A stretch of DNA of 64,000 nucleotides from Escherichia coli (lineage in GTDB: Bacteria; Pseudomonadota; Gammaproteobacteria; Enterobacterales; Enterobacteriaceae): NCBI RefSeq assembly GCF_003790525.1, contig NZ_CP033635.1; one strand, written 5' to 3'. The notes under the pieces were generated by a model. That model saw only the letters and a list, made by a program, of their open reading frames with translations. It searched no databases and had not been told where the DNA came from. The position numbers and the translations under genes were made by a program. Of the stretch, positions 59,205 through 60,839 are shown in pieces. Positions within the stretch are counted from its first letter, which is position 1; each line of letters begins with the position of its first letter.

Positions 59205-59441
59205 ATGGCCAATGTGATTCAACTGACTCCCAATGAATGGGTTTGTGAAAGCGTTCTAATCGCAATTACCGGGCTCAAACCAGGCACAATTCTTCGGGCC
59301 CGGAAAGAATGCTGGATGGTTGGAAGAGAGTATATTCACGTATCACCAGACGGTAATCCAAAGCCTTCCAGTGAATGTATGTATAACAGAAAAGCAATAG
59401 ATGCCTGGGTCGCTTCAATGAAAAACAAACAACCTGGGTGA
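59205..59441 (+). CDS. putative excisionase (Xis-like), by position and size
   Basis: 78-aa basic protein immediately upstream of int; ...VLIAITGLKPGTILRARKECWMVGREYIHVSPDG... Confidence 0.5.
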   Translation: MANVIQLTPNEWVCESVLIAITGLKPGTILRARKECWMVGREYIHVSPDGNPKPSSECMYNRKAIDAWVASMKNKQPG

Positions 59442-59496
59442 TTTAATGCCATGAAGTATGTAAGCTCGTATCGCTCTTGGGCGTCTGGAGGTATCA

Positions 59497-60810
59497 ATGG
59501 ATAAAGTCAAATATCCAACAGGCGTCGAAAACCACGGCGGCACATTACGCATCTGGTTTAATTTTAAAGGTAAACGTGTCAGGGAAAATCTTGGTGTCCC
59601 TGACACTGCCAAGAACAGGAAAATCGCCGGGGAACTGCGGACATCGGTATGTTTTGCCATCCGCACAGGAAGCTTTGATTATGCTGCACAGTTCCCTGAC
59701 TCCCCTAACCTTCAGGCTTTTGGGGTAAGTAAAAAAGAAATTACGGTGAAGGAACTTGAAGAAAAGTGGCTGGATCTGAAACGAATGGAGATCTCTGCAA
59801 ATGCATTCAATCGCTATGAATCCGTTGCAAGAACGATGGTTCCGAAAATTGGAGGCAGCAGACTGGTGTCATCGGTAACTAAAGAGGAATTGCTGTATAT
59901 CAGGAAAGATTTGCTGACCGGGTACCAGAATTCAACGAAAAACAAAGCAGCAGCAAAAGGACGGAGCGTCGTTACTGTAAATTATTACATGACGACAATC
60001 GCTGGAATGTTTCAGTTTGCTGCAGATCACGGTTACTTAGAAGCAAATCCCTTCCAGGGAATTAAGCCTCTTAAAAGAGCCAGGGCAGAGCCAGATCCGC
60101 TAACTCGTGACGAATTTATTCGCCTGATAGATGCTTGCCGACATCAGCAGACGAAAAACCTGTGGTCATTGGCTGTGTACACAGGAATGCGTCACGGTGA
60201 ACTGGTCTCCCTGGCCTGGGAAGATATCGATCTGAAAGCAGGAACTATTACTATCAGGCGCAATTATACGAAACTCGGTGAGTTCACTCTACCTAAAACT
60301 GAAGCAAGTACAAACAGGGTTGTGCATCTTATCCAGCCCGCTATCAGTGTCCTGAAAAATCAGGCTGAAATGACAAGACTGGGTAAGCAGCACCACATCA
60401 AGGTTCAACTACGTGAATATGGGCGTTCAGTGAATCATGAATGTACTTTCGTATTTAACCCCCAGGTGGTTAGAAAAAGCAAACAGGTCGGTTTTATCTA
60501 CAAGGTAGATTCTATTGGCGACTCATGGGAAACAGCCATTAAGCGTGCGGGCATCAGGCACCGGAAAGCATACCAGTCACGACACACTTATGCGTGCTGG
60601 TCATTATCTGCCGGAGCAAATCCAAGCTTCATTGCCAGCCAGATGGGCCATGCAAGTGCCCAGATGGTGTTCAATGTATACGGAGCATGGATGACTGACA
60701 GTAATGCAGAACAGATCGCAATGCTGAATCAGAAGCTGGCAGATTATGTCCCAATGATGTCCCATGGTCACCAAAGTGACACAAGAGACTTATTAAAATC
60801 AGTGGGTTAG
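59497..60810 (+). CDS. int: tyrosine-type site-specific integrase
   Basis: 437-aa; catalytic region ...RHTYACWSLSAGANPSFIASQMGHASAQMVFNVYGAW...; ends 19 bp before the attL core. Confidence 0.9.
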   Translation: MDKVKYPTGVENHGGTLRIWFNFKGKRVRENLGVPDTAKNRKIAGELRTSVCFAIRTGSFDYAAQFPDSPNLQAFGVSKKEITVKELEEKWLDLKRMEISANAFNRYESVARTMVPKIGGSRLVSSVTKEELLYIRKDLLTGYQNSTKNKAAAKGRSVVTVNYYMTTIAGMFQFAADHGYLEANPFQGIKPLKRARAEPDPLTRDEFIRLIDACRHQQTKNLWSLAVYTGMRHGELVSLAWEDIDLKAGTITIRRNYTKLGEFTLPKTEASTNRVVHLIQPAISVLKNQAEMTRLGKQHHIKVQLREYGRSVNHECTFVFNPQVVRKSKQVGFIYKVDSIGDSWETAIKRAGIRHRKAYQSRHTYACWSLSAGANPSFIASQMGHASAQMVFNVYGAWMTDSNAEQIAMLNQKLADYVPMMSHGHQSDTRDLLKSVG

Positions 60811-60839
60811 CCTTCAATACCCGTCATGTTAACTGTGTG

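What the first reader, a model, noticed from the sequence alone, without database searches (positions are those of the whole stretch)
59205..60839. xis-like gene, integrase and attL core: integration module apparently intact
The 78-aa basic protein directly upstream of int is Xis-like by size and position only. int is full length with the conserved R...HxxR...Y region and ends 19 bp from the TTAACTGTGTG core. Together with attR this predicts excision competence.
Basis: partly seen in the sequence, partly recalled or inferred. Interest (0 to 1): 0.35.

Follow-up and report, generated by a model that had tools for sequence, protein, structure and literature searches.

The report
Known phiP27-type prophage integrase/excisionase at yecE
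This is the ordinary, already described integration/excision module (integrase, excisionase and attachment site) of a phiP27-type lambdoid prophage sitting in the E. coli yecE gene; it looks intact and is not new.

Summary
A 78-aa ORF (59205-59441), a 437-aa ORF (59497-60810) and TTAACTGTGTG (60829-60839, 18 bp after the int stop) lie where stated. They form the int-proximal end of a ~44.85-kb mosaic lambdoid prophage (15976-60828) that splits yecE.

Int and Xis are 97% identical to L01 and L02 of Stx2e phage phiP27. That record annotates the same 11-bp attL/attR and the same spacing. The Xis candidate does match excisionase profiles: Pfam PF06806 (7.9e-33) and PHROG 539. It is 34% identical to Rac XisR, a tested excisionase.

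Two corrections:
- There is no literal HxxR. The motif is Y359-x-x-R362, as in Rac IntR.
- The other junction (15965-15975) reads TTAACTGCGTG, one base different.

That base is a common synonymous yecE polymorphism. I infer a 7-bp crossover region, TTAACTG, flanked by inverted core sites. The mismatch then falls just outside it and should not block excision. Candidate arm-type Int sites (TGYCCCA) cluster on both arms and are conserved in relatives.

Verdict: already known, apparently intact, excision competence plausible but untested. Interest is low.

The parts
59205..59441 (+). xis: 78-aa excisionase (recombination directionality factor) of the PF06806/XisR type
   Evidence: Pfam PF06806, 7.9e-33. 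PHROG 539 excisionase, 5.4e-40. 97% identical to phiP27 L02. 34% identical to Rac XisR. PDB 2kvv 'putative excisionase', 7e-4.
59497..60810 (+). int: 437-aa heterobivalent tyrosine integrase. Arm-binding domain about residues 7-70, catalytic domain about residues 202-395. Catalytic residues R232, K267, Y359 (at the usual His position), R362, H385, Y395.
   Evidence: Pfam PF12167 and PF00589. 97% identical to phiP27 Int and 44% to Rac IntR. The listed residues are invariant in 6 relatives. XerA alignment HVLRHT/YQSRHT.
60829..60839 (.). Int-proximal att core (attL in lambda and phiP27 nomenclature), TTAACTGTGTG. Inferred 7-bp overlap at 60829-60835 (TTAACTG). Position 60836 (T) is inferred to be host-derived.
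   Evidence: The overlap is inferred from dyad symmetry and junction allele counts.
60747..60764 (+). Two candidate arm-type Int-binding repeats, TGTCCCA at 60747 and 60758, inside the 3' end of int and 65-82 bp from the core.
   Evidence: The motif pair is kept in phiP27, CharmingMan and Stx1_14040 although the encoded amino acids differ.
15965..15975 (.). Int-distal att core (attR), TTAACTGCGTG. It differs from the proximal copy at position 8.
15976..16152 (+). Distal att arm conserved among otherwise unrelated phages. It holds five candidate arm-type repeats TGYCCCA (16093, 16104, 16114, 16134, 16145), an IHF-consensus match at 16034-16046, and a highly conserved block at 15984-16030 that is the best candidate for Xis and host-factor binding.
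   Evidence: Motif cluster. Four-phage alignment in which homology ends right after the last repeat. IHF consensus. The Xis-site assignment is inference by analogy with lambda and with Rac XisR binding attR.
15880..15975 (+). 5' fragment of the host gene yecE (codons 1-32).
60840..61562 (+). 3' fragment of the host gene yecE (DUF72).
   Evidence: Pfam PF01904, 1.1e-42. In silico reconstruction.
53351..54118 (+). cI-like repressor (HTH plus S24 autopeptidase domain) at the head of the same-strand early-left gene string that ends with xis-int. Context for how the module would be switched on.
   Evidence: Pfam PF00717 and PF01381. ORF layout.

Best explanation
The region is the integration/excision module at the int-proximal end of a ~44.85-kb mosaic lambdoid prophage inserted in yecE. 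It belongs to the phiP27 type.

**Shown.**
- int encodes a lambda-style heterobivalent tyrosine integrase, with an arm-binding N-domain and a catalytic domain.
- xis encodes a PF06806/XisR-type excisionase.
- Both are full length and 97% identical to those of phage phiP27.
- Both junctions and both att arms are present.

**Inferred.**
- Int binds inverted core-type sites, roughly (G/T)YCAYG, on either side of a 7-bp overlap TTAACTG. It bridges them to arm-type repeats TGYCCCA: two in the int-side arm and five in the distal arm.
- Xis, with IHF and/or Fis, bends the distal arm so that Int recombines the two junctions. This restores yecE and releases a circular phage.
- xis and int are the last genes of a tightly packed same-strand string downstream of an SOS-cleavable cI-type repressor. 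They would therefore be expressed after derepression.
- The single C/T difference between the two core copies lies one base outside the inferred overlap. It reflects a host yecE TGT allele meeting a phage TGC allele. It is not expected to block excision.
For: **Family and identity.** Pfam and PHROG matches. Int 425/437 and Xis 76/78 identical to phiP27 L01/L02. The phiP27 GenBank record annotates an 11-bp attL 18 bp from int and a matching attR. XisR is in the same Pfam family, is 34% identical and was tested experimentally (PMC4632033).

**Catalytic residues.** They are invariant across 6 relatives, including Rac IntR.

**Insertion.** Precise in silico excision restores the empty yecD-yecE-yecN locus.

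**Arm repeats.** 7 of the 17 TGYCCCA matches in 64 kb fall in two clusters next to the junctions, all on one strand. They are conserved in phiP27, the Nissle 1917 prophage, the isolated phage CharmingMan and Stx1_14040, while flanking DNA diverges.

**Dyad symmetry.** It is centred on TTA-A-CTG in three diverged attP versions, including the perfect CGTCAC-A-TTAACTG-C-GTGACG in Stx1_14040.

**Allele counts.** Uninterrupted yecE carries TGT in about 776 genomes and TGC in about 298. The int-proximal junction has T in about 114 genomes. The distal junction has T in only 15 against C in 410 (decomposed in the full report).

**Context.** Repressor with S24 domain, Cro-like gene, Q, primase, helicase and phage-21-like head/tail genes are present.
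Against: - No experiment was done on this strain. Excision, Xis dependence, the arm sites, the core sites and the 7-bp overlap are all inferred.
- The junction genome counts are not independent events, because lineages are clonal. They had to be decomposed from mixed BLAST bands.
- If position 8 lay inside the overlap, the heterology would be expected to depress excision.
- No sigma-70-like promoter for int alone was found.
- The AlphaFold model of Xis is mediocre (pLDDT 71) and gave no Foldseek hit at E <= 1e-3.
- An IS5 sits inside the prophage. Phage viability is therefore a separate question from excision.
Confidence: 0.85

Rival explanations
1. The module is intact in sequence but functionally crippled. 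The C/T heterology between the two core copies would lie inside the strand-exchange region, so excision is strongly reduced and the prophage is effectively locked in.
For: The two copies differ at position 8 of 11. In lambda, heterology within the overlap strongly inhibits recombination (established knowledge, not tested here). Four of the five possible 7-bp frames within the 11-bp identity would include position 8.
Against: The dyad symmetry of core-type sites centres the overlap on TTAACTG in three diverged attP versions. The same prox-T/dist-C arrangement occurs in at least about 99 genomes, including a wholly different prophage in Nissle 1917. The reverse arrangement can occur in at most 15, and the one checked (Combat2C1) is T/T. 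An in-overlap mismatch should give both arrangements equally.
Confidence: 0.1
2. The 78-aa protein is mainly a small transcriptional regulator (AlpA/MerR-like winged helix) rather than the directionality factor, and excision needs another protein.
For: Foldseek hits are generic winged-helix and MerR-like DNA binders at weak E-values. NCBIfam has no model that matches it. Rac XisR-type proteins are little studied.
Against: It is a strong member of PF06806 and of an excisionase PHROG. It sits immediately upstream of int in every relative examined. Its homologue XisR controls Rac excision and binds attR.
Confidence: 0.05

Closest known systems
Stx2e phage phiP27 integration module (GenBank AJ298298 / NC_003356: L01 integrase, L02 excisionase, 11-bp attL/attR in yecE)
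   Same: Int is 97% and Xis 97% identical, with the same lengths (437 and 78 aa). The 18-bp spacer between int and the core is the same. The insertion point in yecE is the same. The arm repeats are conserved.
   Different: The rest of the prophage is unrelated: phage-21/lambda-like morphogenesis genes and a phi467-like early region. The int-proximal core reads T instead of C at position 8. No stx genes were seen in the parts examined.
Rac prophage IntR/XisR of E. coli K-12 (integrates in ttcA)
   Same: Same two Pfam families for Int (PF12167 + PF00589) and the same one for Xis (PF06806). Same gene order, xis then int then att. Y at the HxxR histidine position. XisR is experimentally an excisionase that binds attR.
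   Different: Only 44% (Int) and 34% (Xis) identity. Different target gene and core.
yecE-targeting Stx phages of the phage-297 / Stx1_14040 type (AJ431361, LC567819 and relatives)
   Same: Same target position in yecE and the same TTAACTGCGTG core. xis-int order is the same. One TGTCCCAnnnATGCCCCA pair lies on each arm. A DinI gene sits next to the distal arm.
   Different: About 75% nucleotide identity over int-xis. Int is 428 aa. There are fewer arm repeats. The duplication is annotated as 21 bp.
Phage lambda Int/Xis/attP
   Same: Works the same way by inference. The integrase has an arm-binding domain. Arm-type repeats lie on both arms. Inverted core sites flank a 7-bp overlap. A small basic Xis is encoded just upstream of int at the end of the early-left operon.
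   Different: No detectable sequence membership in the lambda Xis family. Int matches lambda Int only weakly (PDB 1z1b, E = 0.0065). Arm motif, core and target differ. No sib-like structure was found.

Membership tests
Tyrosine recombinase / phage integrase (Pfam PF00589) | Catalytic-domain profile match above the curated threshold | tested here: met
   PF00589: 66.9 bits against a cut-off of 27.1, residues 202-395.
Tyrosine recombinase / phage integrase (Pfam PF00589) | Catalytic residues R...K...H-x-x-R...H/W...Y | tested here: inconclusive
   R232, K267, R362, H385 and Y395 are present and invariant in 6 relatives. The first His is Y359: aligned to XerA, HVLR corresponds to YQSR, and there is no literal HxxR. 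Rac IntR, which supports excision, has the same Y, so the substitution is a family trait and not a defect. K267 was assigned from the motif context only.
Lambda-style heterobivalent integrases | N-terminal arm-type DNA-binding domain | tested here: met
   PF12167 Arm-DNA-bind_2: 83.6 bits against a cut-off of 22, residues 7-70.
Lambda-style heterobivalent integrases | Repeated arm-type sites on both att arms, distinct from the core sites | tested here: met
   TGYCCCA occurs 5 times at 16093-16151 and twice at 60747-60764, all on one strand. The repeats are conserved in four other phages. Binding itself was not tested.
Lambda-style heterobivalent integrases | Inverted core-type sites flanking a 6-8 bp overlap where strands are exchanged | tested here: inconclusive
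   Imperfect dyads are centred on TTAACTG, and the junction allele asymmetry fits a 7-bp overlap. The cleavage sites were not mapped.
PF06806 (DUF1233) XisR-type excisionases | Profile match above threshold | tested here: met
   112.3 bits against a cut-off of 22, covering 69 of 70 profile positions. PHROG 539, 5.4e-40.
PF06806 (DUF1233) XisR-type excisionases | Homology to an experimentally characterised member | tested here: met
   Rac XisR is itself PF06806 (6.2e-21) and aligns at 34% identity, E = 6e-10. XisR function: PMC4632033.
PF06806 (DUF1233) XisR-type excisionases | Stimulates excision and binds the att arm | not testable with these tools
   Needs genetics or EMSA.
PF06806 (DUF1233) XisR-type excisionases | Winged-helix excisionase fold | tested here: inconclusive
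   AF2 model pLDDT 71. Foldseek: 2kvv at TM 0.58 and E = 0.07, 8c3t excisionase at E = 0.37, nothing at E <= 1e-3.
phiP27-type yecE integration module | Near-identical Int and Xis, same core, same insertion point in yecE | tested here: met
   One base of the int-proximal core differs (T for C).
Lambda Xis / AlpA-type excisionase families | Pfam profile match | tested here: not met
   A Pfam scan at E <= 0.1 returned only PF06806. It works like lambda Xis by inference but is not a sequence member of that family.

The most novel reading that the evidence does not exclude
The natural C/T heterology acts as a built-in marker. It would place the crossover of phiP27-type integrases in the 7-bp TTAACTG. 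The annotated 11-bp (or 21-bp) 'core' would then be overlap plus part of the B'/C' core-binding sites. It would also show that these integrases routinely recombine partners that differ at the base next to the cleavage site. A lesser possibility: read-through from int into the in-frame open stretch that starts at 60780 yields a chimeric YecE, as RefSeq annotates in relatives.
Probability: 0.55. Interest if true: 0.2.

Novelty: already known. Interest (0 to 1): 0.1.

Why it matters
The finding matters little beyond annotation.
- It fixes the prophage boundaries at 15976-60828, with 11-bp cores at 15965-15975 and 60829-60839.
- It identifies the integration module as the well-known phiP27/yecE type, found at this locus in several hundred complete E. 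coli genomes.
- It says the element should still be able to excise.

The only mildly useful extras are a testable map of the att site (7-bp overlap, core sites, arm repeats) and the note that this integrase family carries Tyr at the usual HxxR histidine position.

Tried and rejected
1. **sib-like RNA.** I looked for a sib-like or terminator structure downstream of int across attP. An 8-bp inverted repeat CTAAAGAA...TTCTTTAG (15997-16030) is conserved. The 90-nt RNA folds no better than shuffles (z = 0.34), so this was dropped.
2. **Fold-level link of Xis to lambda or Tn916 Xis.** The model is only moderate and Foldseek gave no hit at E <= 1e-3. This is reported as inconclusive.
3. **NCBIfam for Xis.** No family matched.
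4. **Int-specific promoter.** No sigma-70-like site lies upstream of int on the + strand. The only + strand hit is inside int, at 59654-59682. A cII-type activated promoter would not be seen by this scan.
5. **Literal HxxR.** It is absent.
6. **phiP27 genome paper (PMC127862).** It is not held in the library. Statements about phiP27 rest on its GenBank record and on citing reviews.
7. **First reading.** I initially read them as 421 T against 110 C junctions. That was wrong, because uninterrupted yecE aligns through 3 mismatches. The numbers were re-derived as about 114 and about 23.
8. **Chance repeat.** Rejected by the in silico reconstruction.

Full report
**What is there.**
The coordinates are accurate. 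ORF 59205-59441 (+) encodes 78 aa and ORF 59497-60810 (+) encodes 437 aa. GAGG and GGAGG precede the two start codons. The four ORFs 58804-59046, 59050-59196, 59205-59441 and 59497-60810 are separated by only 3, 8 and 55 nt, so they look co-transcribed. TTAACTGTGTG occurs exactly once, at 60829-60839, 18 bp after the int stop. Downstream lie a 5'-truncated yecE (DUF72, 1.1e-42), then yecN, cmoA and cmoB.

**The other end.**
A one-mismatch copy, TTAACTGCGTG, lies at 15965-15975. It is directly preceded by yecD and the first 32 codons of yecE. An 11-mer with up to one mismatch is not significant alone: 3 were found against 0.97 expected. However, removing 15976-60839 in silico gives a gapless 2195-bp, 98.4% alignment to the unoccupied yecD-yecE-yecN locus of strain SK1144. 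The prophage therefore spans 15976-60828, about 44.85 kb.

**Identity of the genes.**
- Int has an arm-binding domain (PF12167, 9.7e-24, residues 7-70) and a tyrosine-recombinase domain (PF00589, 2.4e-18). It also matches PHROG 1 integrase.
- The 78-aa protein matches PF06806 'putative excisionase' (7.9e-33; 112 bits against a cut-off of 22).
- It also matches PHROG 539 excisionase (5.4e-40) and PDB 2kvv 'putative excisionase' (7e-4). NCBIfam has no model for it.
- The module is 95% identical in DNA to the left end of Stx2e phage phiP27. Int is 425/437 and Xis 76/78 identical to phiP27 L01 and L02.
- The phiP27 record annotates an 11-bp attL, TTAACTGCGTG, 18 bp from int, and an identical attR.
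- yecE is a textbook Stx-phage insertion site, cited to the phiP27 genome paper (PMC8065619; PMC9751135; PMC8705337).
- 423 of 5,426 complete E. coli genomes carry a contiguous xis-int-yecE arrangement of this or the related 297 type. RefSeq names the genes 'excisionase family protein' and 'tyrosine-type recombinase/integrase'.

**Experimental anchor.**
Rac prophage XisR (YdaQ) belongs to the same Pfam family (6.2e-21) and is 34% identical to this Xis (E = 6e-10). Deletion, overexpression and EMSA showed that it controls Rac excision and binds attR (PMC4632033). Rac IntR is 44% identical to this Int.

**Catalytic residues.**
There is no literal HxxR in Int. Aligned to XerA, the motif HVLRHT corresponds to YQSRHT. 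The residue set is therefore R232, K267, Y359, R362, H385 and Y395. All are invariant in this Int, phiP27, CharmingMan, the Nissle prophage, Stx1_14040 and IntR. Excision-proficient Rac shares the Tyr, so it is a family trait and not a lesion.

**The att site.**
- *Arm repeats.* TGYCCCA occurs 17 times in the window, which is not enriched overall. Five copies lie at 16093-16151 and two at 60747-60764, all on the + strand. By my arithmetic, about 0.005 copies are expected by chance in a 59-bp single-strand stretch.
- *Distal arm.* The distal arms of this prophage, phiP27, the Nissle 1917 prophage and the isolated phage CharmingMan align for about 190 bp from the core. Homology stops right after the last repeat.
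- *Int-side arm.* The pair of repeats is kept although the encoded C-terminal residues differ.
- *297-type phages.* The more distant Stx1_14040 (about 75% DNA identity) has one TGTCCCAnnnATGCCCCA pair on each arm and the same core.
- *Intact attP.* CharmingMan (Int 86% identical) carries cgtcatTTCAACTGCGTGacgcgg.
- *Dyad symmetry.* In all versions, inverted half-sites flank a dyad centred on TTA-A-CTG. The half-sites are CGTCAT/CGTCAC, host GCCACT/TCCAC(G/A), and a perfect CGTCAC...GTGACG in Stx1_14040. I therefore infer a 7-bp overlap, TTAACTG (60829-60835 and 15965-15971).
- *IHF-like sites.* An IHF consensus match lies at 16034-16046, and a relaxed one at 60797.

**The C/T difference.**
Position 8 is the wobble base of a Cys codon (TGC or TGT) in yecE. 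The short-query BLAST results mix true junctions with uninterrupted yecE aligned through three mismatches. This decomposition fits all four calls:
- Uninterrupted yecE with T: about 776 genomes. With C: about 298.
- Int-proximal junction with T: 114 genomes. One search gives 421 minus 307; one search gives 46 plus 68.
- Int-proximal junction with C: about 23. One search gives 110 minus 87; one search gives 13 plus 11. This is an undercount, because C-allele hosts often carry a linked SNP, as in LH50-c.
- Distal junction with C: 410 genomes. With T: 15.

Paired examples are:

| Genome | Proximal / distal |
|---|---|
| This window | T / C |
| Nissle 1917 (an otherwise unrelated prophage) | T / C |
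| MS8345 | C / C |
| Combat2C1 | T / T |

At least about 99 genomes are therefore prox-T/dist-C, and at most 15 could be the reverse. This is expected if position 8 lies outside the exchanged segment, so that the proximal copy inherits the host base and the distal copy the phage base. An in-overlap mismatch should yield both arrangements. The caveat is that genomes are not independent events.

**Context.**
- The same-strand string from 53351 to 60810 starts with a cI-like repressor (HTH plus S24 peptidase). A Cro-like gene diverges from it.
- Q, primase, helicase, lysis genes and phage-21/lambda-like head and tail genes (94% identity) are present.
- The prophage is a mosaic. Only the int-xis module and the distal arm are shared with phiP27 and with the Nissle prophage.

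**Verdict.**
This is an already known, apparently intact phiP27-type integration/excision module. Excision competence is a reasonable prediction, but it was not tested here.

Noticed in passing
window 16173-16486: A DinI-family gene (16238-16486; PF06183, 2.3e-19) lies just inside the distal prophage end. It is preceded by TTGACA (16173-16178) and two LexA-box-like CTG-N10-CAG sites (16179-16194 and 16207-16222). A DinI gene sits in the same place in CharmingMan, MS8345, Combat2C1 and Stx1_14040.
   Followed up: partly
window 45328-46524: An IS5 copy (326-aa DDE transposase ORF at 45396-46376) with terminal inverted repeats GGAAGGTGCGAA.../...TTCGCACCTTCC and a 4-bp TTAG target duplication. 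It is inserted inside the prophage, upstream of a porin gene.
   Followed up: partly
window 46672-47778: A prophage-borne general porin gene (368 aa; Porin_1, 8.8e-126) on the strand opposite to the late genes. It is an NmpC/Lc-like moron.
   Followed up: no
window 17709-18463 and 20212-21296: Long in-frame tandem repeats inside two tail-fibre-region ORFs: six copies of a 99-nt unit (97-100% identical in the centre), and 13 overlapping matches to a 164-nt reference at mostly 45-nt steps, implying a 45-nt period.
   Followed up: no
window 51855-52475: A NUMOD4 + HNH_3 homing-endonuclease-like ORF (206 aa) between the helicase gene and the immunity region.
   Followed up: no
window 60780-61562; L003 4693-5463; L004 47157-47930: The yecE reading frame stays open back into phage DNA as far as 60780. 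The phage side even mimics the host codons (CGT CAT GTT AAC against CGC CAC TTT AAC). RefSeq annotates a chimeric 257-aa YecE with an ATT start in relatives. In this window the first canonical start is GTG at 60837.
   Followed up: partly
window 15997-16030: A conserved 8-bp inverted repeat, CTAAAGAA-N18-TTCTTTAG, in the most conserved block of the distal att arm. It shows no significant RNA structure (z = 0.34) and may be a protein-binding site.
   Followed up: partly
window 58804-59196: Two small conserved ORFs of unknown function lie directly upstream of xis: a DUF4222 protein (80 aa) and a 48-aa protein (PHROG 3871). They travel with the xis-int module in several relatives.
   Followed up: no
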